Shown: positions 1,051 through 27,945 of the stretch, piece after piece
Position numbering within the stretch: the stretch's first letter is position 1
Layout of the letters: each line of letters opens with the position of its first letter
Assembly (NCBI RefSeq): GCF_018977255.1
Contig: NW_024704742.1
Location: 54,624,001-54,688,000, forward strand
DNA from: Callorhinchus milii
Lineage: Eukaryota
Length of the DNA stretch: 64,000 nt
Reading direction: 5' to 3'
The notes under the pieces: model-generated
Databases searched by the model: none
The model's input: only the letters and a program-made list of their open reading frames with translations
Told to the model about the DNA's origin: nothing
Translations under genes and position numbers: made by a program

Positions 1051-2017
1051 TCATTTCCTTAACACTGTCACCAGTTTCCTTGTAGGGCAGACAAAGAAAG
1101 GGGGGTGGGGGCTGCACTTCATTTAGTTGGTCAAAATGAAATGCTTTTTGGTCTAATTTTCTTCTCCCTTGGACATATAGCACTTGGGGGAAGGGAGCTT
1201 TTCGGTTCCATTACTCCATTCATCCTGTTTGCCTCAGGGTTCGAAAATGTATTGAATGATTGCTGGCAGATTCCCATTGTAACATAGAAACACATTAAAT
1301 GAATTATTTAAAATATTTACGTCTGCTGCACAGATTTACGCTCTCAGTTATATATAGCTAGATTCCACATATCACAACATAGTCGCTGGTAAAATAGCAT
1401 CATATATTAACATAAGAGGAGCCAAAGAGAACATTGCCTAAATGTTGGCCCTTAATCAACTCCAAATTGTCTGCTTATTGCACAGTTGCTAAAACACAGG
1501 ATTAGCAGCTCCAGGGAAATTAGGGGCTATTTTAGCAACATGGTGAAGAAAATCTTTCCTGAATCTTTCAGTAAGCGAACAATTGTTTCTAACATCACAT
1601 CAATGTTACTTAATCACAGGCAGCATTTGAAATACAGTAGCAAGCAATTTTGCATGTTATCCAGAATAATGTATGACGTTGTTCTACATTATGTTTCGTG
1701 GATGGATAGATAGGACCCTAAAAGCAATTATTATATACACAATATAGTATGGGCAAAAAATGCTAATATTTTATAACAGGAACATTTCTCAGCTTTGGCA
1801 TAATGATTGGGTGCAAAAATCTCTCAAGCTCCTAATCAAGAACAGTACATGATTTGAACAACACAATATAGTGATAACTCAACTGATAGCCCATAAAGCA
1901 TCTCTCTGATGCTCATAAAGAAGAATTAGGTGCTAGGGCAAGATGACAGCTGAACAGTTATAAAAGTGTTGCATTTGTCAGCCCTATTGCTTTTACAGAA
2001 TCCTGCTTTATTTCAGA

Positions 2018-2587
2018 CTAGCTGTACTGGTTGCAGCTACGCTTGCAACCAAAGGATCCAATATGGAATGTAGATTGACACACAGACAGACATTTCATCT
2101 TTATCTATATTTATCTGGGAGGACTCCTGTGGGAGGAATCCTTTTGGGAGGACTCAGTGGGAGGACTCGGTGCTCTAAAAATGTAATTTTCTTGTTGTTG
2201 CCATGGCTTAGCTTTGTCTGTGTTCTTTATTTTGTTCCCACCGCTTGGCTACATGTGTGTTCCATGATGCAGGATGCCACAGCGCCACGGTCAGCCAGCG
2301 TGTCCACCAGGTGTAACGGCAGTGTGTGCGTATATACATACGTGATCTGTGACACATGATGCCACAGCACCACTTTGACTCAGCGGCCACCAGGTTTAAC
2401 TACAGCGAAAAACGCAAAACTGAACATAACTCATGAAAAATAGGAGATACCCCAAAACAAATATGCCCATGTCACTCCTAGATGCAAGACCTTTCCAATG
2501 AGGTATAAATAATGTCTCTACGTCAATCAGTTATTGAGATCCTTCTTGAAGCGCAGATAGACATTGTCGTTTTATTAGTATAGAAGA
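2018..2587 (-). mobile_element. Non-autonomous Helitron (570 bp)
   Basis: Minus strand begins A|TCTTCTATACTAATAAAA and ends with hairpin TGGTTGCA-8nt-TGCAACCA (2028-2051), then GTACAG CTAG|T. Inserted in an AT dinucleotide with no TSD. Confidence 0.85.
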
Positions 2588-3337
2588 TAAAAGTGACGTC
2601 AAACTGCCAGAGAAATGTTACTAGAATTAGTAGGGATTGAAGGGAATGGAAATATTTCACATCAACTCAGTGTCACATACAGGTATCTTGTAATTTTTGT
2701 TCAGAATATGATTGTGAAATGCTTCAGGGAATGCTTCAAAGATTTGTGGTGATCATTCATATCCTTGTTGAAAATATCAAACTATTGTAACAAAAATGAT
2801 GCAGCCATAGAGACAGAAACAAGCATCTGTAGGATTGTATCAGCATGTTTACCTATGGTGACAATGTGACAAGATAAGACACATTGTTCAATACAGCGTT
2901 GCTGCTCTATGAAGCCTTTACTCGCGCACAGGAGGAATATTGTAAATGCTATTGTGTACGCTGCAGAAAAAATCCACCTCTAGGTTCCTGAACTCAGTGT
3001 GGTACAAGTAAATAAAAACCAATAGACTGGATGAAAACCACCTACTTCATGTCCTACATAATATTGTGGAGAAATATGGTTGAGTCTTTCATTCACTACA
3101 GGGTCATAGCCAAAACAACACCACAAGAGTGATGTTTTATAATCTCTTCAATCATTAAGATTATTATATCTAAGCAATTTAAACATCCTATTCCTGATGT
3201 TTTATTTAGCACACGTTGGTGTATGATAAAACAAGTGTATTACAATGAATCTTTCAGGTTATATTAAATGTTAGAGACCTAAGTGTTGGAAATACACAGT
3301 TTAGAAACACAGACAGGTGTTAAGAATCCATCTCAAA

Positions 3338-3430
3338 TATCTGCATTTACAACATCTGTATCTGCAACATCTGAGTCTCTAATATCTCCATCTGTCAGTA
3401 TCTCAGTCTCCAACATTTGCATCTCTAACA
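3338..3430. repeat. Degenerate ~15-bp tandem repeat, about 6 units
   Basis: Minus-strand units GTTAGAGATGCAAAT / GTTGGAGACTGAGAT / ATTAGAGACTCAGAT / GTTGCAGATACAGAT / GTTGTAAATGCAGAT. Confidence 0.6.
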
Positions 3431-3789
3431 AGCGATGAAATGCACCATCTGCATAGTGCAGCACCGTGTGATAAATTTAAAACAAAAGACATTTAAACTG
3501 CCCAGATACAGTCTTCATAATCGTTGAACAAGTTATGGAAAACTCCATTTCAACCATAAGTTATTAAAAACATATTTAATAAGCCTTAAAATATGCATAA
3601 TCACTTGCAATATATAAATAATTTGATATTATTGTTTACCAAGATTGCTGAGCAAATGTACTAATTGTAACAACAAAAATTAACTTATGATTCAGAAACA
3701 ACCAATATAACATTTGTGGATGGTGCCACTGTGTGGTTATTCAAGTACTGCAGTCCTTTGTCCAAATTCTTGTACCTTCTACACAAATA

Positions 3790-4072
3790 CAGTGCACTAA
3801 AACCCCGCCTAGTGCTAGTACATTAATGGGGGCGGCGGGGGTGGGGAAGGAGATCCAGTCCAGCGAGACAGAATTTCTGGCTAAGTGTAATTTCAGGTGT
3901 AATGAGAAATGCTGGTAAATGCCAGTTCTGTGAGGCGGGGGCATGCTAGGAGAGTTGGGCTAGTGGGGGTCTACACTATGGGGACCCACGGAAATTTTAA
4001 AAAATATATCTTGGTTTCGAGCTGGTTCGGCTCGGTATGAAATCTGGATACTAGCAAGCTGGGGATTTACTG
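3790..4072. mobile_element. Putative Tc1/mariner (Tigger-like) MITE
   Basis: TA|CAGT...ACTG|TA ends. Imperfect TIRs CAGT(gcact)AAAACCCCGCCTAGTGCTAGTA versus CAGTAAATCCCCAGCTTGCTAGTA. Confidence 0.5.
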
Positions 4073-8290: not shown

Positions 8291-9984
8291 TGATAATATT
8301 GTCCAGTCTTAGACAATGCCTAACATATTCACTTTCCTAAGAGAAGGATTTGTAAAGTATCTTCTTCACACCCAAACAACACCTTCATTCTTTAACCCAG
8401 CTGTTTTCCACAAAGACATTTTGGCCCAGAAGGAGGCTTTATATTTCCTAGTGTATGTGATTATTTGGGTTGTTTATATGTTTTGATTCTATTTCTATCC
8501 GCAGATGTATTCATCTCTGCTTCATTATGGCATTAACTATGATTTTGTTTTAAAAATCACCATAAAATAAGCTAGCGTCCCATGATGCCAACCAGCTGAA
8601 TAACATCAATTTTAATCACAAAATACCCAAATCAACATTTCTCTGGTTTATAATATGCTGTTTGACTCACTGCACAAGTGCTGATATCAGTTTGCTCATT
8701 GAGCGCCATAAATCCAAGTCCTATCTGTGCACAGTGACAATACATCAAGGAGCCCAGTCCAGATGGTGGAAAGGGTAGCATAAGCTGATGCTAGCCCTCA
8801 TGAGACGAGACACTAGGCAGCACCTGCTAGCAACATAACAACATAAGAACATAAGAATTAGGAGCAGGAGTAGTTAATTCGGCCCTTCGTGCCTGCCCCG
8901 CCATTCAATAAAATCATGGCTGATCTTCTCACCTAACTCTGATTACCTGCCCTCACCCCATATCCCCTAATCCCTCTATTTTTCAAGAATCTATCAGTCT
9001 CAGCCTTGAAAATGTTCAAGGACTGAGCATCTACAGCCTTCTGGGGGTAGTGAATTCCATAAATTCACTACCCTCTGAGTGAAGAAATGTTTCCTCAACT
9101 CTGTTCTAAGAGGCTGACCCTTAATTTTAAGACTGTGACCCCTGGTTATAGATTCTCCTATCAGGGGAAACAGTCCCTCTGTGTCTACTTTATCCAGCCC
9201 TTTAAGAATCTGATAAATTTCAATAAGATCCCCCCTAATTCTTGTGTACTCTAGAATATAGCCCTAGTTTATTCAGCCTATCCTCATAGGTCAGTCCCCT
9301 CATCCCAGGAACTAACCGAGTGAATCTACGCTGCACCCCCCCGAGGGCAAGTATGTCCTTTTTTAAATTAGGAGACCAAAACTGCACACAATACTCTAGG
9401 TGCGGTCTCACCAAAGCCCTATACAGTTGCAGCAAGACTTCCCTACTCTTATATTCTAAACCTTTCGAAATGAGCGCTAACATGCCATTCGCCTTCTTAG
9501 TTGCTTGCTGCACCTGCAAATTAACTTTTTGGGACTGGTGTACAAGGACACCCAAATCCCTTTGAATACTAGCACTACCTAACTTCTCCCCATCCAGAAA
9601 ATAATCTGTTCTTTTATTCTTGCGACCTAGGTGAATAATTTCACACTTGCTAACATTGAATTCCATCTGCCACCTACTTGCCCACTCCCCTAGCCTATCT
9701 ATATCTTGTTGCAATCTTTTTGCGTCATCCTGAGAGCTCACTCTGCTACCTAGTTTAGTATCATCCGCGAATTTAGACACATTACATTCAATGTCCTCGT
9801 CCAGATCATTGATGTAAATGGTAAATAGCTGAGGCCCAAGCACTGATCCTTGTGGCACTCCACTAGTTACATCCTGCCAATTCGAGAATGATCCATTTAT
9901 CACTACTCTCTGCTTTCTACCCGATAGCCACTCTTCTATCCATGTTAATATTTTCCCATTAATCCCATGGGCCTTGATCTTGAG

Positions 9985-10063
9985 TGATCTTGAGCGCCTT
10001 GGGACGTCCTCTCGACGTGAAAGGCACTCTATAAATGGAATCTTGTTGTTGTTGTTGTTGTTG
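9985..10063 (+). mobile_element. 79-bp 5'-truncated L2 3' tail nested in CR1
   Basis: AGCGCCTTGGGACGTCCTCTCGACGTGAAAGGCACTCTATAAATGGAATC(TTG)n. Removal restores CR1 HKRLL-LKIKAHG. Confidence 0.9.
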
Positions 10064-10144
10064 TAACAGCCTTTTGTGTGGCACCTTGTCAAATGCCTTC
10101 CTAAAATCCAAATATACCAAATCTGTGATGTGGTACTCATTTGT

Positions 10145-10470
10145 GGAGTCCTGTAGTTCAGTGGTTAGAGCACTCGCTTTGCAAGTGAGAGACCTGAGTT
10201 CAATTCCAGGCAGAGGGCGAAACCTTGGGCAAGTTTCCTTACTCCACACAGAGCCTCATAATAATCCCTCCAAAAAAAGCAAAACAATAATAAATTGGTC
10301 ATTTTCAATCTACGACTGTTTGTGGGACATTGCTGTGCGCAATTGGCTGCCGCGTTCGCCCACAAATATACAGTCAATTCACTTTACAGTATATTCTGTG
10401 AAGCGCTTTGGGACGTCCTCCCGACGTGAAAAGCGCTATATCAAATGCAAGGATTATTATTATTATTATT
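10145..10470 (+). mobile_element. tRNA-derived SINE with L2-type tail, nested in CR1
   Basis: A box TAGTTCAGTGG, B box GTTCAATTCC, TGC anticodon-like loop, (TTA)n tail. ATCT is duplicated at 10121-10124 and 10471-10474. Confidence 0.92.
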
Positions 10471-10884
10471 ATCTACTGGTTCCCCCTTATCCAACCTGCT
10501 AGATATATCCTCAAAAAATTCTAAAAGGTTAGTCAAGCATGACTTCCCTTTTGTAAAGCCATGTTGACTCTGTCTAATCTTTTTATGGTCTTCCAGGTAT
10601 CCCATAACTACGTCTTTTATTAAGGACTCAAGAATTTTCCCTACAACTGATGTCAAACTAACTGGTCTATAGTTTTCCCTATTTTCTCTCCCACCCTTCT
10701 TAAATAGTGGAGTTACGTTTGCAATCTTCCAATCAATGGGAACTTTTCCAGTATCCACAGACTTTTGGAAGATTGTAGACATGCCATCCACTATCTCAGT
10801 AGCCACCTCCTTTAAAACTCTCAGATGCAGGCCATCCGGTCCAGGAGATTTATCGGTTTTAAGACCCGACAATTTACCTAGAAC

Positions 10885-11735
10885 AGAAACTGCCCTGGTC
10901 AAGGTCACCAATGACATCCTGACCATCTGTGACCAGGGCTCTCTCTGCCTCCTCGTCCTCCTCGACCTATCGGCAGCATTCGATACGGTCGACCCTGAGC
11001 TGTCCTTTCTCCCCCATATCCGCACCACAACTGGCACCACCTTCCATCACCTCCGGAATGTCGCCAGACTACGGCACTACCTCACCCCTCACGCTGCTGA
11101 AACTCTGGTCCACGCCTTCATCACCTCAAGGCTGGACTATGGGAACTCTCTCCTCGCCGGCCTTCCCGCACCTCCCTCCACAAGCTGCAGGTCATTCAGA
11201 ACTCTGCAGCTCGTGTACTGTCCCGCACCAGGCTTCGCGACCACATCACTCCCACCCTCGCTCGCCTCCACTGGCTCCCCATCCCCCAGAGGATCAAATT
11301 CAAGATCCTCACCCTCACCTACAAGGCCATTCACGGCCTTGCTCCCTCCTACCTCTCCGACCTACTATTCCCCTACCTACCTGCCCGTACCCTCCGTTCC
11401 TCTGGCTCCGGTCTCCTCCAACCGCCCCAACCGCCCTACTATCGGTGGCCGGGCCTTCAGCCTCTCAGCCCCTAGGCTCTGGAACTCTATCCCCCAGTGC
11501 CTTCGCCCCCTCCTCCCTTTCCTCCTTCAAGGCCGGTCTCAAGACCTTTCTTTTTGACCGTGCCTTCAGCTCCCCTCTCGACTCTCTACCCCCTCCTCGC
11601 TCCCTCCCTTCCCTCCCCTCACCCTGACCATTTCCCCCCTGCTCGGGTCCTGACCCAACTGTACAGCGCCTTGGGACGTCCTCCCGACGTGAAAGGCGCT
11701 CAATAAATGGAATCGTGTTATTGTTGTTATTGTTG
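10885..11735 (+). mobile_element. 5'-truncated, internally deleted L2 LINE nested in CR1
   Basis: Encodes TETALVKVTND, LDLSAAFDTVD and SRLDYGNSLLAGLP. Has the L2 3' stem-loop and (TTG)n tail. TSD TAGAAC at 10879-10884 and 11736-11741. Confidence 0.93.
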
Positions 11736-13202
11736 TAGAACCATCTCTTTGCTAATGTTAATCTCTCTAAGTTGCTCGTTAACATTGTCTTCTTGGTCCT
11801 CTATTTTTGGTATGTTTCCAGTGTCTTCTACGGTGAAGACTGTAGAAAAATACTTGTTCAATGACTTTGCCATGTCTTTGTCCCCTATTATAATTCCTCC
11901 GGTCTCTGCCTGTAATGGACCCACATTTACCCTCGCTAGCCTTTTCCTCTTTATATATTTGTAAAAACTCTTGGAGTCTGTTTTTATGTTTTTTGCTAGT
12001 TTGCCCTCGTAATCTATTTTCTCCCTCTTGATCAATTTGTTGGTCCTCCTCTGTTGTTCCCTAAAGTTCTCCCAATCCTCGGGTTTACTACTCATCTTCG
12101 CTGTTTTATAGGCTTTTTCTTTTGATTTGATACTTTCCCTAACTGCTCTAGTTAGCCATGGCTGCACCACCTTTCCCATGGCATTTTTATTCCTCAAAGG
12201 AATATGTGCTCGTTGGGAATTTTGCACTATCTCCTTGAATGTCTGCCATTGCTGGTCTACCGTCAAATCTTTAAGTTTAGTCTCCCAGTTTATTCTGGCT
12301 AAATCCTCTCTCATACCAGCAAAGTTGGCTCGATTTAAATTGAAGACTTTTGCTTCAGACTTAACTACTTCCCTCTCTAACTTAACGCTAAATTCCATCA
12401 TATTATGATCGCTTTGCCCTAGAGGAGCCTTAAGTTCCAGTTTGCTGATCAGCCCTGTTTCATTACACAAAACAAGGTCTAATATGGCTTGTTCCCTGGT
12501 CGGCTCCTCAGCATATTGATCTAGAAAATTATCTCTAATACATTCTATAAACTCCTCTTCTATGTTACCTTTCCCAATTTGGTTGTCCCAGTCTATGTGC
12601 AGGTTAAAATCACCCACAATTAGTGTCTTTCCTTTGCTACATGCTCCACTAATCTCTTGATTTATACCTTGAGCGATACTTTGACCACTGTTTGGGGGTC
12701 TATAAACTACTCCCACTATAGTTTTCTGCCCCTTGAAGTTACGTATCTCTACCCATACTGACTCTACATCTTGCTTTTCAGATTTAAAATCTTTCCTCTC
12801 TACTGTTTTTATCCCATCCTTTATTAGCAGGGCCACTCCCCCTCCTCGTTTACCACATCGCCTATCTTTCCTATATACCACGTAGCCGGGAATATTCAGT
12901 TCCCATCCCTGATCACCCTGTAACCATGTCTCGGTGATGGCTACTAGATCATACCGGTTTGTCTCTATTTGTGCAACTAATTCATCTATCTTGTTACGAA
13001 TGCTTCGTGCATTCAGATATAGCGCCCTTAATTCTGACTTCCGGCTATTAACCCTATTCACCAGCACTCTATCACTGTACTTCCTTTCCCTGCTTGACAC
13101 ACTTTGCTCTTCTCCCTTGTTAATCTGCTCTCTTGCTTTTGTTGATCTCAAGTTTAACTGTGGTGGACTATACTTTACTATGCTTTTACCTCTCCCCCCC
13201 CC

Positions 13203-13812
13203 TTAGTAGTTTAAAGCCCTTTCTACCTCCCTATTTATTCGCGTAGCCAGGACATTTGTCCCAGCCCTATTTAGGTGGAGCCCATTCCTTTGGAAAAGCT
13301 CCCATCTTCCCCAATACTCGTCTACTTGTCTCCCTGCCACGGCTACAGAAAACTGTACCAGTCCTCTCGACTGTCTCATCCCCAATAAGAATTACATTTT
13401 TAACCTCCCGCACAGGGGTGTTGGGGTCAGTTTGTCCGTCTTCCTCGCAGATTTCCTTGTCCACACAGGTTGCCAATATTTCATACCTGTCAGACAAGGC
13501 TAAAGTCTGGGATTCTTCAGCTCCTCTCTTTCGGGAACGCTTGCCTGCCCGCCTGACTGTCACCCAGTCATGTCCGTCGCTGCTACATTCTTCTTCCTTG
13601 GGACTCAGGGGAGTGTCCGGCTCCAGGATAAAGCTGTCCAGGACGTTTTCTCCATCCCTAATGCTGCACAGCATCTCCACCTGAGACTCCAGCTCAGCTA
13701 CTCTCAGCTGGAGCTCTCTGATTTCCAGACACTTGCGGCAGACGAAGTCGCCCGGACTTAAGGCGCCCTCCATTGACTCCCACATGTGATAGACTCGCAG
13801 TTTACCTGCCAC
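13203..13812 (-). pseudogene. CR1 ORF1 remnant (zinc finger/leucine zipper + partial SGNH esterase)
   Basis: CRKC plus LQLRVAELESQV zipper, VILIGD (GDS-like block), and C-terminal NGLHLNRAG (DGLHL-like) in another frame. Confidence 0.85.
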
Positions 13813-13929
13813 ACCATCTTCACAAACTTTATATAGATACGAGAATAACAATTGAATATCCAAAGAGCTGAATCAGTCACTGTTCAATCATCAAGGCAGG
13901 GATTAAAGAACTGTCAGGATTTAATAAAC

Positions 13930-15566: not shown

Positions 15567-15680
15567 TTTTTTTGGTCAGCTGGGTGTCTGACACATGTGG
15601 AAACCCATCACCATTCTTAAGAGTATCCAAACTAAACTGAGATTTCCATGCATCCCACCTACACATGGAAATTCCTGTTA
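15567..15680 (-). mobile_element. Unclassified A-tailed repeat, copy 2
   Basis: T-run followed by GGTCAGCTGGGTGTCTGACACATGTGGAAACCCATCACC. Confidence 0.75.
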
Positions 15681-16319
15681 TTGAATAACACCTTACAGTG
15701 AGAGAAATTGACCTTGTAGAATGAAAAAGTTTTATAACCATTTTCAGAATAAGATTACAGCCCAAAAATAATTGTGTTCTCAAAAGGAATAAGTTAATTA
15801 TGAGGAAAAATCAATTGCACATCTATTTTCAGCGTGTACTGTATTCCGTAACATAAAGTATTCTGTAACCACTTAATAAATTTTTTGCATTATTAAACAG
15901 CTAATTCAATTAGCACAGAAAGCAGCAAGAGCAGCAGCGTGGAAATATTTAATTAAGCTGTACACCTAAAGCTATCCATTTAGAATGAAAATGAATGGAA
16001 AAACAAGGAACTAGTTTTGGATAAGGTAAATAACTATAATGATACAGTCAAAGCACAGGATGCTTGGAGAGACCCCACATATTACCTTCAGACTCTGGTC
16101 TGCAACAAATGAATGAGAGGATGAGATAAATGGAGATATCCACAGAGATAATGGACTCAGAATCTTTATACTCAGTAGATGACATCAGTACTACAGCAAA
16201 GAATCAAGATTCTTTGGCCAAGTCTAACTCAACAATAGCATACCCTGCATCTTACCTCTTCTATCTGTCTTCAAGTCTTGCCTAAAAACCATCATTGAAT
16301 CTTGCCTAAAAACCATCTC

Positions 16320-16655
16320 AGAGTTTCACAGGATTTATTATAGTGTACTAATGTAGGTGAACACAACAGCCAATTTATGCACAGTAATGTCTCATAATCA
16401 GCCATGAAGTGAATGACCAATTTTGCCTTTGGGATTTTTGGACAGAATAATGGGAGAAATTATATTCTCTTTTCAAATAATGTCATGATATCTTTAACAT
16501 CCACCCGAACAGGTAGACAGAACCTTGATTTACCACCTCTTTTAGTGGAACCTCTGATAACTCAATGCTCCCCAGCATTGTAATAGAGTGTCTACCTAGG
16601 CTGTTAATTCAAAGTCCTGACATGAGGCATGAATCCATGACCTTCGGCCTCAATG
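16320..16655 (-). mobile_element. Deu-domain SINE (old)
   Basis: Plus-strand ATCTTTAACATCCACCCGAACAGGTAGACAG is the reverse complement of the Deu core. Confidence 0.65.
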
Positions 16656-16879
16656 GTGAGATGCTATTCTTCTTTGGGGAAGTACGAAGGTTCTCCTTGG
16701 GGCTGAGCTGACCCCAAAATGGCATTGGTACTTTGGAATCAGGACAATCCTTTGTGGTAGTTTTGGCATATCTGGTTCCTGAGCTAGGCACGGTCATCAT
16801 ATTTCGATTCACTGTTGATGACAAACCAGCCAGCTAGCTTATCAATAGAACTTGGAGAAAGAAACCAGTCCCTAGGGAC

Positions 16880-17251
16880 CAGCATTTTTGCCACACAGCT
16901 CCGGTTAACTCTGCAAGCCACAGCCCTAGTGGACAGGGTAATCCTTTTTGGACAAGTGATGCGAAGCTTTCCAGAAAGTGTTCATACTAGCAAATAATGT
17001 GGTTTTAGCTGATTAAACTCCAGCAGTACCACAACACACACCCAAGGCTTGGCTCCTATCTGTGCTTAATACTTTCTGGTATGAAATAAGCGAGGTGTAT
17101 CCCTCTGGAGACAGAATGCACACTTCATTTCAGACAAATGGGAATTTTCCATGTGTATGTGGCATGCATATGTGGATCGTTTGGCCTGATTTGGGTGCTC
17201 TTAAGCATGGTGAAAGGTCTCCGTAGGTGTCTAATACTCTGTTGACCAAAA
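16880..17251 (+). mobile_element. Unclassified A-tailed repeat, copy 3 (long)
   Basis: Shares TTTTAGCTGATTAAAYTCCAGCAGTACC with the copy at 42230, and the 3' end with all other copies. Confidence 0.7.
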
Positions 17252-17554
17252 CATAATTTGTGCCAGCAAACAGCTGGAGATCTCCATGCTTGCTATTCCA
17301 TTCCAAACCATCATACCCAGCAACTTCACAATTGGAACTCCAGGAACACCTGTATGGTTGGTTTGAAATCTGTGAATACAATTGTGAACACCTAAACACA
17401 AATAAATATTCAATATGTTTAAAAAATTCTAAATTATTTACATTTTGAATAATATGCAAATTACAAATACATGTCTAAAATGTTTTTTGGAATTTACTAT
17501 CAGAAAAATATAGTTGCAACTTTCTGAATAGACTTTGGGTGATGGAATTCCACT

Positions 17555-17573
17555 CCGCCACTAGGGGGAGATA
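17555..17573 (+). promoter_or_regulatory. CTCF-like binding motif
   Basis: CCGCCACTAGGGGGAGATA fits the CTCF core. TGGAATTCC just upstream resembles the auxiliary upstream motif. Confidence 0.55.
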
Positions 17574-17871
17574 GCATACCACCCTGAAAACTGCAGAGTT
17601 CAAACCTGCAACAAAATCATTGAGCCTTTATTTCTTTATTTTTTTCACTTTGCTTGGTAATGGGAGGGTAGTACAGCAAAAAATAATACCCCAGAATATA
17701 TATACATATATATACATATACATTTGTAGACAACAGTAGGTGGGTAGTGCTTTTATTCAGACTGAAGTAGAGAAGGAAAGCCTGAGTTTAATTCAAATGC
17801 AAGGATTATTATTATTATTAATTATCAGTAAAAAGATTTTTCCAACCCCCAAAAAATGTTAATCCACCTTT

Positions 17872-18100
17872 GGGGTAAAATTCCACCTGGGTCTAGATTT
17901 CCTCTATTGATGTAGTTTGCAGGATTTAGTAAATTGTTGAAATCAGTTTTAACTTTGAAGCCTGTTTTCTGTAGTTCTTAAAAGAAACTTAGATAATGAG
18001 TTTCAAAATTAAAGACTGTATTTAAGAATCTGACAAAATCCAAATGCTCTAAATTGTTATGTTAATAGAGTAAATCTAGACCCAGGTAGAATTTCTAACC
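17872..18100. mobile_element. Palindromic MITE-like element
   Basis: AAATTCCACCTGGGTCTAGATTTCCTCTATT versus reverse complement AAATTCTACCTGGGTCTAGATTTACTCTATT. Arms remain alignable for about 90 bp. Confidence 0.75.
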
Positions 18101-18631
18101 ACTTATCCGGTCGTATCTTTACGTTGCTTTGCAGGAGCTTTGAATAATTTCAGAACCAGACAGCATGGATTTGGCTTGAGAACATAGGACTTTTGACATG
18201 ATGTGGCGTGTCGTCCATTAATGACTTTTTCCCCTCTCCCTCATGTTGGCCATCGTTGCACCAGTGCCATTTCGCAATCTTTGTGCAAACTTTGAAAAAG
18301 GTCATTGTTCATTGTGAGGAAACAAGACAAGTTCAGATTTCCGCAGCATTATTCTGGCTTGGATGAGGACTGAAAGGGAGGGCAAAAAGACACATTTTCA
18401 GGATAATTTGCCGTGAAAGAAAAAGAAAGTGGTCCTTTTTTGCAGATTACCAAAATAAAGGGCTTCCAGTAGGTAAACTGGCCAAAAGGCCTGGTCTGGG
18501 TCATTCTAAAGTATTGATTGATATACAGATCCTATTATAAATACAATCATTGTTTTGTTGTGAGTGAAAAGATTTCCTGGATTCCTAATTTGTTGCACTG
18601 AGAGAATCAGAAGAAATAGGCGCCTGTGTTT

Positions 18632-18698
18632 AACAACAACAACAACAAGACTCCATTTATAGAGCGCCTTTCACGTCGGGAGGACGTCCCAAGGCGCT
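18632..18698 (-). mobile_element. Young L2 3' tail
   Basis: (AAC)n followed by AGCGCCTTTCACGTCGGGAGGACGTCCCAAGGCGCTG. Confidence 0.9.
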
Positions 18699-19116
18699 GA
18701 GTTTAAGGGTGGGGTAAAAAGAACCAGCAAACCAGCTTCAGTTTGTTTAGCTCCAATCAATATATTCAAAGATAAATAAATGGCTTTGTGCAGTTTCAGT
18801 GCGTTGTAGATGTCCTGTTCCACTCAGAGTAGATCTTGAAGATTACATTGTTTATTGTAGAGAAATGGAGTTCAATACTTTTCAACTGTAACTCTCACTA
18901 TGTGCAAGTGTTATCTGAACACATTAGCGAAAATATATAGATCAACGCACAATCCTCATTTTGGAATTGAACAACAGGAAGAAGATAAATGAGGACCAAC
19001 CTAGCTAACAACTGATAAGGTGTGAGAAATTAATGTTAATATTCTGGGCCTGAATTTCATTTCAAAAAGCTGTAAACTTGAGTATTTATGGAAACTGAAG
19101 CTGAACATGATGTTGA

Positions 19117-19230
19117 ATCATAGAATTGTACAGCGCAAAAGGAGGCCATTCGGCCCCTCATGCCTGTGCCATCTTTTTGCTATCCAACTATTCCCATTTC
19201 CCCGATCTTACCCATAGCCCTGCAAATTCT
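19117..19230 (-). mobile_element. CR1 3' end fragment
   Basis: GAATCATAGAATTGTACAGCGCAAAAGGAGGCCATTCGGCCC. Confidence 0.75.
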
Positions 19231-22200
19231 TCGTACAAAATCCTGACATCGCTCCTGCTAAGTACCTATCCAATACAAAGAGTTGTACAATATTCTACAC
19301 ATCAAACAGATACAGCACCAGCCTATGTTTATGTAGTAGAATCCTGTTAGATGCATTTTGTCACAATGCAGGTGATTTATAGTAGGTGTGATTGAGGTGT
19401 GAACGCCATGTTTACTTAGTCAAAAAATCTAAACTGTACACACAAGCTCTATTGGTGCTTCACAATGCCAGCTGGTGCAAAGGAAGCCAAAAACAGTCAT
19501 CAGGTCACCCCTGGTGTCATTTCCTGTGATCTTGTCAGCTTTATGAAGAGAAGGTAGAGCTGGGCATATCTCTGAGCACATGGATAGTGAATGTCAAAGC
19601 CTTGACTGGCAAACTCGATCCATTATTGAGCTGATTGGGCTTTTGTGGACCCTCAACTACTACTTTAACAGGACTCTCCTGTATTTCCTTGATGTTATTG
19701 TTCAATGAAGTAGAATCACAAAAAGAAAGTGATCAGACCTGCCAGATGTGCTAGGTTCCTACCCAGATACTCAGGCCTCCTCTGGTACTGCATTGGAGCG
19801 TCATCCACGCCTCTGAGCTCAAATCCTGACATCGGGCTTAATCCAGTAACCTTCTGACCAAGTGGTGACTGTGGTGCCAACTGACACACGGTAGCAGTGG
19901 AGATAAGTCATGGATTAAATACACATCACAATGTCCAGCAGGTCCCACCAAAAAAACAGTGGTGCTTTTCCCTTTCTTGTTAATGGATACATTTCATAAT
20001 TCAGGAATGCCAGAGTCTGCGGAGTAGCAGAGGAAGGTTCGTATCAGCAGAGCCAATTCCATTCATGAGAACAGAGATGTATTTATCTTGTCGCAGGCTT
20101 AAATACCATTTTTTCCTCTCCCTCTTTCATTTTCACTAAAGCTTTGATGTGGATTATAAAGCAGCCAAAAATCGACCAAATTACCTGGAGACTGAAACAT
20201 TTTTGACATAAGTCTCGAGTGCAGAGCAAGTCATTTTTCTTCTGGCCTGGCCAGGCTGTGTTTCATCTCTGAATCAAGATGACAGCAGCGATGATGGAAT
20301 GATGGGACAGCTGGCCGCAGTTCCACTACAGCTGAAACATACAGGGTCCGAACCTTTTGCAGATGACTGCGGCTGCAGACAAAATACATTGGTTGTAAAT
20401 AGGAAGGAATTTCCTGACATAGCTCAATATTGCAGTGACCCCCATTTTATTCAGCTTACTAAAATCAAATGTAATGACTTTGAAAAAAGTATTTTCTTGA
20501 TTTCAGTCGCCTACTGATATGTTAACACACATTGTAGAAGGGATGCAATGTTTCACAGTTGCTGCAAAATTTACGCAGACATTTTCTTCAATTAAAGTAC
20601 TGAGATAGTTCATTGAAATTGTTTCAAAATATTACTTAATGAGATATAGAGCATTGTCATGATTTATATATATCATAATCATAGATATTTGCAACACAGA
20701 AGGAGGCTATTTGGTCCATCATGCCTGAGGCAGTTAATTCTATTCTCCTATCTTTTCTGCATATCGTATCTCTAGCTGATCTGCAGGAATATCTGTGCAG
20801 TACTGCATCACAGTGTTTGCCTATTCAAAATGAGTTTTAACCACAAGAAAGTGATTTACTCTTCTATATTGTCCAACTCATGGAACCCTGATCTGTCTAA
20901 CATATTCTTACGAAGCAATAGAAAAATCATGTGAAGACTTAGAACTATAATTAGAATTCTACTAATCCTACTGCATCTGGCAAGTCAATTTTAAATAAAA
21001 ACGCCTCAGATAAATGTTGGTATTTTAAGCATAAAATTCCTTGGTGGCCTCAGAAGCGGAAAGGAACAAACACCACTAATGTTTTCAAAGTGATTGTTTA
21101 CGCGGTGAGAATGTTTAGAATAAATCAAACCAAGCAAAGTCTATCAGTCTCAGAGCTTTTAAGAGAAAAAGACCCTTTCCTCAGGTTCACTATTGTTTAA
21201 AATGTCCTGAATCCTAACATTCCTACCACTAATCTCAACCTGCATTACTGAACCTAATGTTATTTATTCCAGTCTTCAGAGCTAAGGCTTCACCATATCT
21301 GCTTCAAGTGGGTTTCAGATTTAGGCTTTAGAGTTTAGGCCAGGATGTCAGGATTTAGTTGATTCAGCTCCGGGTTTCAAGCTCATCTTCTACATCTGCA
21401 TCACTAATGTTATGTATATGATGCTCCAAATACCCAGCAAAATTATAACAAAAATAATAATAATCCTTGCAGTTGATACAGCACCATTCATGTCGGGAGG
21501 ACAACTCAGATTTATTGTAAAGTATGATGACTTTGTATTGTGTTGATGGAAAATGATTTGCTATTCCTGACTATAAGTGATTATATGTATATTTCAGTGA
21601 CCAATCAGAAATTTCAGATTGAAAGGTTAGAGCACATTTATTGAATGGAAAATCCAAGGACAATAAAATCCTCATAGTCTTAGCTTTAATAATGTTATGT
21701 TATTAAGCACTCAAGCACTCCGAGACATTACCCCCATGTAGGGCGCTATATAATGCAAATTATTGCTGTTGTTAACATTTAAGATTGTGCAGAATTTTTA
21801 GAATTCAATCTTAACTTGGAACCCAGGTTTCCCTAGGTTTTAGGAAAAAAAATCCCAGAAACCTTTTTTTTATTTGATTTTTTTTCCAAAACAATTATGT
21901 ACAATTTTATATTTTAAGACAACAGCCTTAATGCTAAGATCGTGGCAGATTCCATGCCTCTAATTCCAATCAGTCCAACCAAATCTGTCCTGTTTGGGTG
22001 GTGACCTGATCCCCTCTGATTCTAAATACTTTCTGTCATACAAATGCCATTGATCCCAAGGTTGACTGCTTTAAGGAGAAGGAATGTCAGCCTCTAGTAT
22101 TTATAATGCAGAGTGGATGTTCAAACAGATTCAGAGCTAAGGCTTCAGGCTTCCCATCTCTGCTTCAAATGGTTTCAGATTCAGGCTTTAAAGTTTAGCA

Positions 22201-22402
22201 GAGAGATTTACAAAACACAAATATTTGAAGTCAAAGAAGCTGGGGGGTTCTCAAGGATCTTTTGTGTGTATTAAGGTAAGGATGTCAATACTGGGAATTG
22301 GAATAGTTTCATATTTTGATGCAGAATAAAGCTTTCTCCACTCTATCATGAGAAGAGCATCCTAGAGTGCGTCAGTAATACATTATTACACTTTCTACTA
22401 CA

Positions 22403-22740
22403 GCAATAACAATTGCATTTATATACCACCTTTCACATCAGGAGGACATCCCACATTGCTAGACAGTCGAGGGTTTGCACCCAAGCTTGGGGTTGGATTA
22501 AGAGAGTTAGGGGGGAAGTAGGGTGGTGGTGGGAAGATGACTGAAGGCACAGTCAAAGAGGAAGGTCTTGAGACAGAATTTGAAGGAAGTAAAGGAAAGG
22601 GGCGAGGCAAAGGGACTCCGGGATGGAGTTCCAGAGTGTGGGGGCAGAAAGGATAAAGGCCCGACCTCCAATGCTGGGGCAGGCAGGGCAGAGGACATGA
22701 AGCAGGCCAGTGCCCACCAAGCGATGGGAGTGGGCGACTT
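22403..22740 (-). mobile_element. L2 3' fragment
   Basis: Encodes IGGRAF...APTLWNSIP and LKTFLFD. Has an L2 tail. Confidence 0.85.
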
Positions 22741-22984
22741 GGTAAGGTTTCGACATACCAACAGCCAAATAATTCAAGGAATTGCCTGTTTAAAACTTGG
22801 ATGTGTAGACATGCTCTTAACCATGAAACTTAGGCATTAGATTTTAAGACCAGCTCTCACTATTTAGTTCTCTCCATTATTGCTCAGCTCCAGGTACAGG
22901 TACCAAGTTTACTTTTCATCAATATCTAAAAGACAACCCTCCCTTCCTTCTTCAATTTACATCAACTGATTATAGAAAGAAACA

Positions 22985-23385
22985 ACTTGCAATTCTATAG
23001 CATTGGATCCAGCACACTGAAAAGTACTTTACAGGTAATTATTGCCAAGTATAGTTTTTGAAAGCAAACACAGCAGCTATTTCTGCTCCAACTAGGGTTA
23101 CACTAATTACATGACCAATTAAAGTAAAGGATTGTTAGCTAGGGCACCAGGAGGAACTACCTTCTCTTTTGGAAGAGTGCCTTGGGATCTTTCATATCCA
23201 TCTGAAAAGGCATGCAGGACCTTGGTTTAACATCTCATCAGAAAGATGATGCCTCTGACAATACAAAGACCCCCACCATTGCACAGGAATGTCAGTCTAG
23301 GACTATGAACTCAGTCTTGGTGGAGCTGGAACCTACAAACTTCTGATCCAGAAGTGAGAGTGCTAACACCTGAGCCATGCTGGCA
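22985..23385 (-). mobile_element. Deu-domain SINE (old)
   Basis: GGGATCTTTCATATCCATCTG...CTTGGTTTAACATCTCATC, with a tRNA-like head near 23380. Confidence 0.7.
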
Positions 23386-24138
23386 AATAAACACCTGACT
23401 TGTTCACTGATACAGTTAACATTGCATTGTTCGATACAAGCTATGCTAAACAGAGATAGAGTACATTTTTGTCCAATTTACTGTTATTGGGACATCGAGC
23501 TCCTACAAATGTTTTTCTTAAGGACTCAGAGACGATGACACAGATACTTGTATCATTAAAGCTTATGGTCATGGACTAAATCCAAGCTGTGTTTCTGCGA
23601 TGATGAGAGAAGAGGTGCTGCAAGAGCTGGAGCTGCATTTTGTTTGATCCACATTTCAAGGATATCAGATTCCAAAACTGACACCAAAAGCAGGCTGCAC
23701 CATAAACTCCAGGACATTTTTCATATCATACCCACTCAATCATCTTGGAAGTTTTCCTCATCCTGAGATAAGATCGGGAACTAAAAATGTAACCCCATGT
23801 GATGTTTCATTAGATCAGAGAACTACATAGGTCTAACATAAATATTTAACAGATATAATTTTATCTTATAAAGCCAGCCACATGCATTTCGGGTAAGATA
23901 TTAAAACAGTGTAATGCACATCAAATATTGCATTTGAATTGGAATGAGAGATTCCAGGTTTGTACAACTGAGAAAAGCACTTCAAAATTAAGGTTCCAAA
24001 AATGATATGAGGATGGAGCAGGAATGTAGGATTAAATAGCTCTATTGAGAGAGTTGCATAAGTACAGGCAGATTGGTCCAAACGGCAGAAATGTGTTTAA
24101 TTCCATCGCAATTGTCCAACTGGAAAAAGTGGATAATG

Positions 24139-24280
24139 GGAGAGAGTGCACATTCCAGTCCAATACATGGGAATTTCCATGTGTAGGTGGGATACATGGA
24201 ACTCTCAATTTGGTTTAGTTGATTTTAAGCACGGTGATGGGTTTCCACATTTGTCAGACACCCAGCTGACCAAAAGAAAA
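24139..24280 (+). mobile_element. Unclassified A-tailed repeat, copy 4
   Basis: GGTGATGGGTTTCCACATTTGTCAGACACCCAGCTGACCAAAAGAAAA. Confidence 0.75.
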
Positions 24281-24905
24281 ATTAAACTTGATGATTGGCG
24301 TAAAAGTTATGTTTTTCTTTTATTGTTCGTTAAACTAGCAAATATCACCAGGTGTGTGCTTCCAGCTTATGGAAATTAATTAATGCTGCCATTAGTTTTG
24401 AATTGCAAATTTTTTCTCCCATTGAGACCAATTGTATTTAATCTCATTTCTGCTCTATGTGAGATCAGGTACCTCAGCACAGAATAATCAATGAACCTGT
24501 GATCGTAATCTTTGCATTTAATACTGTGTGTGTAATATCCTGTAGCTCAGCTTGACGCCATTCAATGTGTTTCTCCATTAAGTCGATTCGTATGAATGTT
24601 TTACTTCAATCTGTGGTGGCAAGATCTCTGTGACTAGAACTGTTAGCTCTTGCCTTCTGTGAGGTCCTGCCCGATAGCTAATGTACAGGCAGATTGGTCC
24701 GAGTGATTTAGTTTGTTAAAATGAACAAAATGAACAAAAAGCTTTTAATAGACCCATGCACCTATACATGAACTTATACTGTACTCAACTTAAACAAATG
24801 TTAAGAAATAAACTGACAGTTGTGGGAGCCAGAGCCACTCTGACACACTGACAGCTGCCCGCTCTGCGCAGGTGCAGTGTGTGTTGGTGAAGGTCCTCTC
24901 AGCCA

Positions 24906-24924
24906 CAGTGCCGCCTAGTGTCCC
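24906..24924 (-). promoter_or_regulatory. CTCF-like binding motif
   Basis: Minus strand reads GGGACACTAGGCGGCACTG. Confidence 0.5.
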
Positions 24925-25369
24925 TGGTAGACTCATGCCTATATAGTCATCCTGGATATCCAGTCACTGAGCTCTCTCCTTGGATTGACGGTACATTTTG
25001 ATGACCTATGATATGTGCTTAGTTTTGATGATATCATGTGGCTCATGCATCCACAAGATAACAAGAGAGGTTTGACTGAAGAAGCCTTTCTTGCCCATCT
25101 GATCTCATCCTTCACAGCATCAAGCTGTTTTTTAATTGAGTCTAGTTTCAGACTTTTTATAATAATAATAATATAATAATAATTTTTCTTTAAGCCCTTT
25201 TTTTAAAAAAAATTACAATAAAATTAGTTGCTGTAGCTTCTGAAAAGCCGAATTATTAATTTGCATTAAAATATATTTTTCCAAGATCATGAATATGTTT
25301 GATAAGCTAAATAAAGATTCACTAACAAGAAGGAATAAATAGAGATTACCATTATGAATCCATAACAAC

Positions 25370-25550
25370 ATTTAATAGGGAATTTGCTAAGTACTGGAGG
25401 AAAAATAATATTAAAGAAAATGAGGAAGGAGCAGGGAAATGGGATTAGAGCATAGCTCCCATGGGGGAGTTAGCAATAGCGCAGACATGATTGGTCAAAA
25501 AGCCTCCTTCTGTGCTGTAAACTTTCTATTACTATATGATTGCTATGTAA
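25370..25550 (+). mobile_element. CR1 3' end fragment
   Basis: GAGCAGGGAAATGGGATTAG...GCCTCCTTCTGTGCTGTAAACTTTCTAT. Confidence 0.7.
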
Positions 25551-27861
25551 GGTTCAGTTTATACTTCACACATTTTTCACCATGACAATGCAGACTGTTA
25601 ACCTTTTGTAACTGTGTCTTGGGTTGCCAACACAAGGGTGCAACCTCTCCATGTTAACATGAGTACATGACATGGGAGGTCAATAACCAATTACACAGCT
25701 AGTACAGAGGTAATAATGCAGCTGACATAATGTAGATAACTGGAGGCAGTTCTCCTTGTCCCCCAATCAAAGCATTACCTCAGGGGAGCGTCTACTTGGT
25801 CGTTTTACGAAGCTCCTGAATGTTCAATTGGACAAGGTGAAAATTCAGCACATGAGCAAAGAGCAATTGCTGGAATATCATTAAAGCCACAGTGTTTCAG
25901 AACTGCATTTTTTTCTTGCACAAATTGGGCCTAAAACGACCGACCAGTGACAGAAACATTACCTGCAAATCTACTTTGAAGCAGTTGAACTTTTTGTAGC
26001 AGAGATCAATATCAGCCACACACAGTTTGTTTGCTTACAACACACTTCTGTTCCTTGCCTCAGGTTCCTGCCAATCAAAAAACAAGAAGCTGAGGTAAAA
26101 GATTATGTCAAGCAGACTCAGTTGCTCTGGCAGGAACGGAGGCTGTTTTAAGCATTTTGAGTGTAGAAAGCTTTTATAGTATGTCCAATCCCTGTGTTGT
26201 GACAATACACTGTTAACAAAATAATGTATCCAGTTTTCAGGAACTCACACTAACCAAAATCCAGTGAACCCAATGCCAATCCCAGAATTTTGCCTATTTT
26301 TTTTGATTTCCACCATTATCTTTATTTAATGTATCCCTAAAAATTGAATCTCACATATAATTGACCTTGCCAAAAATAATTAATCGTCCCAACTTGTCAC
26401 TTACTCACTTGACACAGGTTTTCCTCAGCATTGTTTGTGATAATGTAAAATCATGCTGATGTTACAAAGTTATAAAACAGTTAATGTAATGGTTTTGGTT
26501 AGCTAGAAAATTATAACATTTCTCCCAATGTTCCCTTAAAAAAAGAACTGACAATTTAAAGGCCTTGCCCAATGAAACAGTGGAGGTTTACAAAGTAGTG
26601 CTTAAAGGTTTAACAATCAGTTCTTGTTTTCAGTTTGGTTCATATTTTTAGTTCACAATTGTAAAATATGAAACAACAGTAACTTTTTTTTAGGCGTGAC
26701 GAATCCTTTGCCATCAATTCCCTATGAGACCAAAAACAGGATATTACTTAGAGGAAAGTCAAGGAATTTATTAGAAAAATGAAATTAAATTGAAAGAATC
26801 ACTGCACTAGGGCAAAAAGTACATTCCCCACAACATTGTAAAATAAGATGATTGGTCATTTTTAACCTACCCTTTGGTACTGCAAAAGAAGCCAACCATT
26901 CACTGCCATGATGAGTCTCCCTGCTGGAAAAGGTCTAATAAGGAAATGGACATTCTGGTCCAAGCTCCCACTTGCTCATCATGATATTATATGGGAATTG
27001 GCATCTCTCTTATTTCTGTATGCCAGTCATAGCATTTAAATCCAAATAAAGTGCTTAATGTTGGCTGGGACTCAACCCCATTTGTACCGATCTCAGTAAT
27101 TGTTCAGGAATACTAGAAACAATGCCAGTCCCTGCTTTAGATAACAAGAGGCAGCCAAAGATGAACCCACTCATAAACCTCTTAAATGGGTCTATTCCAT
27201 TCAGGAGTCTTAACATGGCCACATCCAACAGGCTTCTGGTCCACGTTAAAAAGTTGGAATTTTTCCAATCAGGCAAAAGAAATGATAAATTACTTTTGCT
27301 GTATGTATGGAGCTAATACTTTAGATGAAAAAGTTTCCATATCGTTCCCATACCTCTACCCACAACACCCCAATCAAGTACTATTCTCTGTTAGCCTAAA
27401 CTAGAGACCAGAGTGTAGTAAGAAGATCCAAACATAACTAGTAAATTTACAAAGTAAATGCAAATGACCCTGCTCCACATAACAAGAGGCAGCCAAAGAT
27501 GAACCCACTCATGAACCTCTGAAATTGGACTTTCCAATTCAAGAGACTTAACATGGATGTAAAAGGCGCTATACCAAATGTTTGCAAGTAAGTACATAGA
27601 GTTATGATATGAGTTGAGTTTCTGACAATGTTATGTGTCATTAAAGGACAATATGAAAATGAGAAGAATTTATTGGTTTATATTGGGATGTGTGAAATGC
27701 TGGCAGGGACAATATCCCTGGTTCCCCTGAGCAGCTGGTGATAGGACTTTCCTTGTGGCACAAGCTAGGAACTTTTCTGTCAAGGATTTTCTTACAAATA
27801 GCAGCTTGCATGGACATTTCAGAGGATGTCAAGAATGAACCACATAATGTGGGTCTGGAGT

Positions 27862-27945
27862 TGTGATAGAGAGAGGTGTGATAGAGAGAGGTGTGATAGA
27901 GAGAGGTGTGATAGAGAGAGGTGTGATAGAGAGAGAGAGATAGAG
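27862..27945. repeat. 15-bp minisatellite (GTGTGATAGAGAGAG) x about 5
   Basis: Direct reading. It explains the repeated SLYHT in ORF 27641..27994. Confidence 0.95.

What the first reader, a model, noticed from the sequence alone, without database searches (positions are those of the whole stretch)
2018..2587. Complete non-autonomous Helitron with textbook termini in a LINE/SINE-dominated vertebrate locus
Seen on the minus strand: 5' A|TC(TTCTATACTAATAAAA), a GC-rich 3' hairpin (TGGTTGCA/TGCAACCA) ending 6 nt before CTAG|T, an AT target and no TSD. The interior retains many CpGs relative to the flanks. Established: these are the diagnostic features of rolling-circle Helitrons, which are patchily distributed in vertebrates and known to move horizontally. 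Inference: a fairly young family, possibly uncatalogued or horizontally acquired.
Basis: partly seen in the sequence, partly recalled or inferred. Interest (0 to 1): 0.7.

Follow-up and report, generated by a model that had tools for sequence, protein, structure and literature searches.

The report
Ancient rolling-circle transposon in cartilaginous fish
This is a real 570-base non-coding Helitron (rolling-circle transposon) from a large repeat family in a cartilaginous fish, but it is an old insertion shared with distant relatives, not a young or recently transferred one, so it is an ordinary member of a known class.

Summary
The termini are as described: A|TC at 2587, an 8-bp hairpin, a 6-nt spacer, CTAG|T at 2018, no target duplication. 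Contigs of four coded runs laid on the locus show a high-copy dispersed family. Loose ends with unrelated AT-rich flanks pile up at the 3' end (196, 129, 70 and 26 contigs). Listed 5' piles lie at 2582 and 2584, 3-5 nt inside the stated end. So it is a non-autonomous canonical Helitron (HLE1). It is not young. The same site is filled in organism B (both junctions) and D (5' junction), whose flanks differ from the window by about 12%. Long paralogous pieces differ by about 16%. CpG content is no higher than in neighbouring SINEs. The host is a chondrichthyan, probably a holocephalan; if A versus B is the Callorhinchus-Chimaera split, the insertion is older than about 187 My. No sign of horizontal transfer was found. 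Repbase already holds an autonomous elephant-shark Helitron (Helitron-1_CM). I could not test whether this non-autonomous family is catalogued.

The parts
2018..2587 (-). Whole non-autonomous canonical Helitron (HLE1) copy, 570 bp, no coding capacity
   Evidence: summed contig depth 14-12,650 times that of the flanks in all four runs; no Pfam match in the ORFs of 48 aa or more that overlap it
2537..2587 (-). Left (5') terminal sequence, starting TC after the target A
   Evidence: loose-end piles at 2582 (51, 42, 28 contigs in X15, X3, X6) and 2584 (42 in X15, 10 in X14, loose part starting with the target base); a pile at 2536 in all four runs marks a second 5' subtype
2439..2572 (-). Abundant 5' module, shared with shorter derivatives
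   Evidence: Depth 15,600-28,200 in X15 against 2,200-3,800 in the middle; joints 2076>2482, 2082>2522 and 2092>2455 link it directly to the 3' module
2250..2405 (-). Low-copy interior with a two-unit direct repeat (period 83-85 bp, about 73% alike)
   Evidence: D1, D4; lowest depth of the element
2169..2200 (+). 32-nt piece like the 3' tail of the host L2-type LINE, antisense to the Helitron; probably captured by the family founder (inference)
   Evidence: Matches at 49272-49303, 10027-10054 and 18637-18668, E 7e-4 to 9e-3; alignment; paralogous contigs X3 record 18 and X6 records 25 and 26 run across it
2116..2171 (+). 14-bp minisatellite, about 4 copies
   Evidence: (D2)
2075..2113 (-). Internal degenerate copy of the 5' terminal sequence, just upstream of the 3' module
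   Evidence: D3, 20 nt at 80%; 26 of 50 columns identical when aligned with the 5' end
2018..2076 (-). Right (3') terminal module, the most abundant part, shared by other interiors
   Evidence: Bin 2037-2103 is 26-36 times deeper than the middle in X15, X3 and X6; pile behind 2076 with a common different interior, 46, 62 and 16 contigs
2028..2051 (-). Subterminal hairpin, 8-bp arms, the inferred transposition terminator
   Evidence: (I21); function by analogy with Helraiser (PMC4778049)
2017..2021 (-). CTAG 3' end (2021-2018) and target T (2017)
   Evidence: loose ends before 2017 in 196, 129, 70 and 26 contigs, agreement 0.42-0.48, so many unrelated flanks, with the T retained

Best explanation
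The segment is a complete, non-autonomous canonical Helitron (HLE1) of an old, high-copy family in a cartilaginous fish, most likely a holocephalan. Shown: TC and CTAG ends, terminal hairpin, A|T target without duplication, many copies with the same 3' end in unrelated AT-rich flanks, and the same insertion in relatives about 12% diverged. Inferred from established Helitron biology: a RepHel (HUH nuclease plus PIF1-type helicase) supplied in trans nicked the 5' TC, peeled off one strand, paused at the hairpin, cut at CTAG and joined a copy into an AT site. The conserved ends with interchangeable interiors, the internal 5'-end-like repeat and the L2-tail-like piece fit a history of internal deletion, nesting and read-through capture. 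The amplification came before the split of organism A from B, C and D. This copy has since been inherited vertically and is decaying by CpG loss.
For: Termini and hairpin. 5735, 3464, 3021 and 493 contigs laid in X15, X3, X6 and X14; depth rises in the bin holding 2018 and falls in the bin holding 2587. 3' loose-end pile at 2017, and a second 3' variant pile at 2031 (48, 69, 29, 10 contigs) that also ends CTAG|T. Filled orthologous site: X3 record 17 covers 1617-2071 (401 nt flank, 54 nt element), X3 record 23 covers 2545-2981 (43 nt element), X14 record 8 covers 2545-2746 (43 nt element). Pooled differences: B 143 of 1158, C 80 of 580, D 55 of 457, host allele 8 of 1456, long host paralogues 227 of 1376. 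C>T plus G>A make 134 of 266 changed places in X15. Named best hits of the neighbouring CR1 protein are sharks and rays at 48-62%. HLE1 definition (PMC11417382); mechanism and AT-rich target preference (PMC4778049).
Against: No empty site was seen: none of the 15 joints listed skips 2018-2587, and 614 are hidden. The 5' piles listed are 3-5 nt inside 2587. No RepHel was linked to these ends: none in 450 of 452 window ORFs of 48 aa or more, and no genome is held. Only contigs were laid, so depth is not a copy number, and the long paralogous pieces are biased towards divergent copies and cut at 80%. Organism C's 3' flank contig stops at 2009, so its site is undecided. X15 has 1.7-1.9 times more laid contigs than X3 and X6, so some later activity in the host lineage is not excluded. 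Host and relatives are coded; holocephalan identity and the 187-My date are inference.
Confidence: 0.86

Rival explanations
1. A young Helitron family, recently amplified in the host.
For: Ends look intact; CpG o/e is 0.54 against 0.16-0.26 in the flanks; 570 of 5735 X15 contigs are 99+% alike.
Against: The orthologous site is filled in B and D; B and C show the same share of 99+% contigs as the host; long paralogues differ by 14-19%; CpG is no higher than in local SINEs, and TpG/CpA o/e is 1.4, or 1.9 in the interior.
Confidence: 0.04
2. An old family for this copy, but with a younger subfamily that shares only the 3' 60-100 bp and stayed active after the lineages split.
For: The 3' module is 26-36 times deeper than the middle; distinct subtypes branch at 2031, 2076 and 2536; the host has more laid contigs than B or C.
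Against: The same branch points and depth profile occur in all four organisms, which points to subfamilies formed before the split.
Confidence: 0.25
3. The family entered the lineage by horizontal transfer, recently or in the stem lineage.
For: Helitron transfer among animals is documented (PMC2997563); DNA transposons are rare in the elephant shark, 0.14% (PMC6817897); HELIANO found HLE1 in only 4 of 8 elasmobranch assemblies.
Against: Every other organism laid (3 of 3) has the homologous flanks, so it is a relative. Terminal patterns found no homologue in metagenome, viral or prokaryote contigs.
Confidence: 0.2
4. An HLE2 (Helentron/DINE-1-like) element or a TIR MITE rather than an HLE1.
For: An imperfect 16-nt subterminal inverted match exists, 2073-2088 with 2513-2528, 81% (I3).
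Against: The target is A|T, not T|T; the ends are TC and CTAG; the first 15 nt of the two ends match at only 7 positions; there is no target duplication.
Confidence: 0.04
5. Chance motifs in unique intergenic DNA.
For: No second copy lies in the 64-kb window; TC and CTRR signals alone are common (PMC11417382).
Against: Thousands of contigs, and base-exact 3' pile-ups in four organisms.
Confidence: 0.01

Closest known systems
Helitron-1_CM (Repbase, Callorhinchus milii), autonomous HLE1
   Same: Same class (HLE1) and probably the same host lineage; listed with Rep and Hel domains in HELIANO Supplementary Table S1. It is the obvious candidate mobiliser.
   Different: It codes for RepHel; this element codes for nothing. 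I saw only its name, so shared termini are untested.
Helibat1/Helraiser and HelibatN1-N3 of vesper bats
   Same: 5'-TC, CTAG-3', subterminal palindrome, AT target in AT-rich DNA, non-autonomous derivatives, capture of host sequence (PMC4778049).
   Different: The bat palindrome is 19 bp and 11 nt from the end; here it spans 24 nt and ends 10 nt from the end. The bat families exceed 100,000 copies and are recent; this one is smaller and predates a deep host split. No sequence comparison was made.
HLE1 families of skates and rays found by HELIANO
   Same: Canonical Helitrons in cartilaginous fish: 11,154 in Leucoraja, 4,818 in Mobula, 1,651 in Hypanus, 1 in Carcharodon.
   Different: No holocephalan was among the 8 chondrichthyan assemblies scanned; relationship to this family is untested.
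Helitron1Nb_Mam and Helitron3Na_Mam (human Repbase repeats)
   Same: Fossil non-autonomous Helitrons in a vertebrate (listed in PMC5753468); their pan-mammalian age is recalled, not seen in a call.
   Different: Those are recalled as heavily decayed; here the ends are still readable, as expected in a slowly evolving lineage (PMC5381603).
Heligloria, Helisimi, Heliminu and Helianu (horizontally transferred Helitrons)
   Same: Same superfamily; reported in bat, lizard and lamprey (PMC2997563).
   Different: Defined by 80-97% identity between distant taxa and patchy presence; here only relatives with homologous flanks were found to hold the element.

Membership tests
Canonical Helitron (HLE1), non-autonomous | 5' end begins with TC | tested here: met
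   TC at 2587; pile at 2584, also a TC start, in other copies
Canonical Helitron (HLE1), non-autonomous | 3' end CTRR | tested here: met
   CTAG at 2021-2018; both listed 3' piles (2017, 2031) end in CTAG
Canonical Helitron (HLE1), non-autonomous | Short hairpin just upstream of the 3' end | tested here: met
   8-bp arms, 6 nt before CTAG; z -3.76 for the last 53 nt
Canonical Helitron (HLE1), non-autonomous | Insertion between A and T, no target duplication | tested here: met
   A at 2588 and T at 2017 (minus strand); no 2-12 nt duplication; target T kept across the 2017 pile and target A at the 2584 pile
Canonical Helitron (HLE1), non-autonomous | No terminal inverted repeats | tested here: met
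   7 of the first 15 positions match between the ends; no terminal pair among the 25 of 26 inverted repeats shown
Canonical Helitron (HLE1), non-autonomous | Dispersed copies with coinciding ends in unrelated flanks | tested here: met
   3' end exact in 196, 129, 70 and 26 contigs; 5' end within 3-5 nt in the rows shown
Canonical Helitron (HLE1), non-autonomous | Empty orthologous or paralogous site | tested here: inconclusive
   The site is filled in B and D; no skip of 2018-2587 among 15 joints shown, 614 hidden
Canonical Helitron (HLE1), non-autonomous | Autonomous RepHel partner sharing the termini | not testable with these tools
   No genome held; no RepHel domain in 450 of 452 window ORFs; Helitron-1_CM seen by name only
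HLE2 (Helentron, DINE-1-like) | Insertion between T and T | tested here: not met
   Target is A|T; definition
HLE2 (Helentron, DINE-1-like) | Short (sub)terminal inverted repeats | tested here: inconclusive
   One imperfect 16-nt pair 55-75 nt inside the ends, 81% (I3); chance not excluded
TIR MITE | Terminal inverted repeats and target duplication | tested here: not met
tRNA-derived SINE | tRNA-like head and simple-repeat tail | tested here: not met
   Rfam finds 3 tRNA-like matches in the window, none in 2018-2587
Horizontally transferred Helitron | Higher identity to a distant taxon than vertical descent allows | tested here: inconclusive
Helitron-1_CM family (Repbase) | Shared terminal sequences with the Repbase consensus | not testable with these tools
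   Sequence not available; the name gave 0 papers in main-text search

The most novel reading that the evidence does not exclude
An undescribed Helitron burst in the ancestor of living chimaeras, older than about 187 My, left hundreds to thousands of non-autonomous copies whose ends are still readable because the lineage evolves slowly. It would make up more of the genome (crudely 0.03-0.2% from summed depth) than the 0.007% Helitron share published for the elephant shark. It would give some of the oldest Helitron insertions datable by orthology, and a set of presence/absence markers for chimaera phylogeny.
Probability: 0.35. Interest if true: 0.45.

Novelty: new member of a known kind. Interest (0 to 1): 0.27.

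Why it matters
Modestly. Helitrons are known in cartilaginous fish and one is catalogued for the elephant shark, so the class is no surprise here. If the dating holds, the family records an early episode of rolling-circle activity in a lineage described as nearly free of DNA transposons, may show that its Helitron content is under-annotated, and offers insertion markers with little homoplasy.

Tried and rejected
Whole-genome search: no genome is held. Second copy in the window: none by blastn or by nhmmer with three modules at E<=1 (no shuffled control was run). RepHel or host exon in the window: Pfam on 450 of 452 stop-to-stop ORFs of 48 aa or more gave only RT and endonuclease domains of the CR1 at 9238-13202, plus sub-threshold hits; the weak beta-propeller hit at 39530 is AT-rich non-coding DNA. 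Terminal patterns in public contigs: 0 hits. A looser hairpin pattern gave 3 metagenome and 2 viral hits; none matches the element beyond the pattern, so I treat them as chance. Rfam: nothing in the element. Earlier scan notes: nothing. Six runs labelled organism A hold next to none of the words (X19-X24), which is unexplained and no proof of absence. Dating by mutation rate was dropped: the shark rate is per generation (7e-10) and I have no generation time. Literature: no paper describing this family in searches; the library lacks Repbase Reports and most subscription journals. The supplement of PMC4350176 could not be searched and may give elephant-shark Helitron counts; the repeat figures of PMC12952989 were not visible.

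Full report
1. Observation. On the minus strand the segment begins TC at 2587, preceded by A, and ends CTAG at 2018, followed by T; it is 570 bp. The hairpin arms (2044-2051 and 2028-2035) pair at 8 of 8 positions around an 8-nt loop and stop 6 nt before CTAG. The last 53 nt fold at -10.2 kcal/mol, z -3.76, with 0 of 200 shuffles as stable. There is no flanking duplication of 2-12 nt and no terminal inverted repeat. In 20 simulated 64-kb sequences such a 3' signal arose 0.15 times per window and was never paired with a 5'-like motif; that 5' motif was defined after the fact. The CpG remark is true against the flanks (o/e 0.54 against 0.16 and 0.26) but not against other repeats of the window (five SINEs 0.53-0.83, L2 0.66, CR1 0.50).

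2. Is it a repeat with fixed ends? No genome is held and the window has no second copy. The run index listed 24 runs, 18 holding part of the stretch, from coded organisms A, B, C, D and one unlabelled study. I laid 4 of them (X15 = A, X3 = B, X6 = C, X14 = D; all contigs, 80% likeness) on 1300-3300. 5735, 3464, 3021 and 493 contigs were laid. Summed depth is 2-10, 35-40, 22-45 and about 3 in fully covered flank bins. It is at least 2168, 2022, 2140 and 44 inside the element, and peaks at 59,204, 51,842, 76,897 and 605 in the 3' bin. The tool warns that this is no copy number. The loose-end counts are safer: 196, 129, 70 and 26 contigs leave the sequence exactly before 2017 into unrelated AT-rich DNA (agreement 0.42-0.48), keeping the target T. 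A second 3' variant (48, 69, 29, 10 contigs) also ends CTAG|T. At the 5' side the listed piles are at 2582 (51, 42, 28) and 2584 (42 in A, 10 in D); the 2584 pile is a TC start preceded by A. A pile at 2587/2588 is not among the 24 rows shown (1875 hidden). It could be diluted, because the A-run beyond 2588 matches AT-rich flanks by chance (inference).

3. Anatomy. The ends are far more abundant than the middle (26-36 times in X15, X3 and X6). Joints such as 2076>2482 (seen in B, C and D) and 2082>2522 link the two terminal modules directly, and common branch points at 2076 and 2536 mark other interiors and a second 5' subtype (15 of 629 joints shown, and joints at this likeness can come from repeats). 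This copy's interior holds a two-unit 83-85-bp direct repeat, a 14-bp minisatellite, a 32-nt piece like the host L2 tail, and a degenerate second copy of the 5' terminal sequence at 2075-2113. Paralogous contigs run across the L2-like piece, so it belongs to the family and not only to this copy. Conserved ends, more variable 5' than 3' ends, and doubled left ends are described for Helitron-like elements (PMC11417382, passages).

4. Age. The site is filled in relatives. X3 record 17 runs from 1617 across the 3' junction and ends 54 nt inside the element. X3 record 23 and X14 record 8 cross the 5' junction with 43 nt inside. All three meet the tool's 31-letter rule. Non-homologous overrun is unlikely: record 8 has only 21 differences in all, fewer than 43 unrelated letters would give. 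Organism C is undecided. Pooled differences over the listed flank and junction contigs are 143 of 1158 (B), 80 of 580 (C) and 55 of 457 (D), against 8 of 1456 for the host run. At 12 listed flank sites between 1678 and 1754, B, C and D share a letter against A, so A lies apart from the three (868 rows hidden). The identity spectrum of laid contigs is alike in A, B and C (99+%: 9.9, 7.6, 8.7%; 95-99%: 22.2, 22.2, 23.8%), which a recent host-specific burst would not give. Half of the changed places in X15 are C>T or G>A (134 of 266), and TpG/CpA are in excess. The family is old.

5. Host. The neighbouring CR1 protein (11730-13148) has 114 hits; the best named ones are sharks and rays at 48-62% identity, and others fall to about 35%. 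The deep runs assemble to 0.9-1.05 Gb, against 2.2-4.3 Gb for the 8 elasmobranch assemblies and 0.97 Gb for the elephant shark. CR1, L2 and tRNA-SINE dominance matches what is published for that species. I infer a holocephalan (about 0.85). If A versus B is the Callorhinchus-Chimaera split, dated about 187 My (PMC12952989, passage), the implied rate is 3.6e-10 per site per year, plausible for a slow lineage. That assignment is inference (about 0.65); a shallower split would lower the age but still leave it far from young.

6. Mechanism. Shown here: ends, hairpin, target, dispersal, vertical inheritance. Taken from Helraiser (PMC4778049, passages): RepHel cleaves at the 5' TC, the helicase unwinds one strand, the hairpin acts as terminator, CTAG is nicked, circles form, and integration is into AT within AT-rich DNA; bypass of the 3' end captures flanking DNA. 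Inferred: a RepHel in trans moved this family. None is in the window (450 of 452 ORFs). Helitron-1_CM is the natural candidate, untested.

7. Comparison with what is known. The element meets every HLE1 feature that I could test and fails the T|T target of HLE2. Helitrons are not foreign to this clade. Repbase holds Helitron-1_CM from Callorhinchus milii with Rep and Hel domains (HELIANO supplement rows). HELIANO reports HLE1 in 4 of 8 elasmobranch assemblies. Chalopin et al. count Helitrons among superfamilies found in most vertebrates studied and lost in birds (PMC4350176, passages). The published Helitron share of the elephant shark is 0.0068%, about 67 kb (PMC6817897 supplement). The listed 3' junction contigs in X15 alone (244) would equal 41-139 kb at 170-570 bp each, and summed depth gives 0.03-0.2%. 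This hints at under-annotation, but both figures are crude and assume the host. The elephant-shark genome paper's supplement has no mention of Helitrons (PMC3964593, supplement search). Other papers seen as passages only: PMC2997563, PMC5381603, PMC5753468, PMC10587355, PMC6404401.

8. Horizontal transfer. Nothing supports a recent one: 3 of 3 other organisms laid carry the homologous flanks. Pattern scans of metagenome, viral and prokaryote contigs found no homologue. These tools cannot see an old transfer or most animal genomes, so entry into the stem lineage by transfer stays open (about 0.2).

9. Verdict. A real, complete, non-autonomous HLE1; old and vertically inherited; a new or possibly already catalogued member of a known kind. 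Interest 0.27.

Noticed in passing
window 9238-13872 (-): A long CR1-type LINE with an ORF1-like frame (13267-13872) and an endonuclease/RT frame (11727-13202, 10441-10690, 9235-9990), interrupted by nested plus-strand insertions: an L2-like piece (about 10695-11730), a tRNA-SINE (10145-10472) and an L2-type tail (about 9990-10065). It could serve to order the retroelement waves.
   Followed up: partly
window 10145-10472, 29521-29834, 42577-42860, 43768-44090, 52025-52312 and fragments: A roughly 320-bp tRNA-derived SINE with an (ATT)n tail, five near-full copies 77-92% alike; Rfam scores a tRNA-like head in 3 of them.
   Followed up: partly
window 1300-1565 and 1617-2009; 2588-2981: The unique flanks align to organisms B, C and D at 84-90%, with 8-nt and 3-nt deletions in B at 1402 and 1534; no exon was detected, so this is probably neutral DNA in a slow lineage.
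   Followed up: partly
window 2537-2545: Both orthologous contigs (B and D) stop aligning at 2545, and many paralogues branch at 2536, so this copy may carry a host-specific change or a subtype junction here.
   Followed up: no
window 2304-2312 and 2387-2395 (+): Both units of the interior direct repeat contain CCACCAGG, which resembles half of a CTCF motif (recalled, untested; low confidence).
   Followed up: no
window 13718 (+) and 63096 (-): Two further hairpin-plus-CTRR|T signals without a 5' partner; the first lies inside the CR1 ORF1-like frame. Probably chance.
   Followed up: no
window 27858-27935: Young-looking 15-bp tandem array, 5.2 copies, 98% matches.
   Followed up: no
runs X19-X24: Six runs with the host's species label hold next to none of the element's words, one with 534 million letters; library type or labelling may explain it.
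   Followed up: no
whole window: No host protein-coding exon was detected by Pfam in 450 of 452 ORFs of 48 aa or more; the window looks like a large intron or intergenic DNA, though short exons would be missed.
   Followed up: partly
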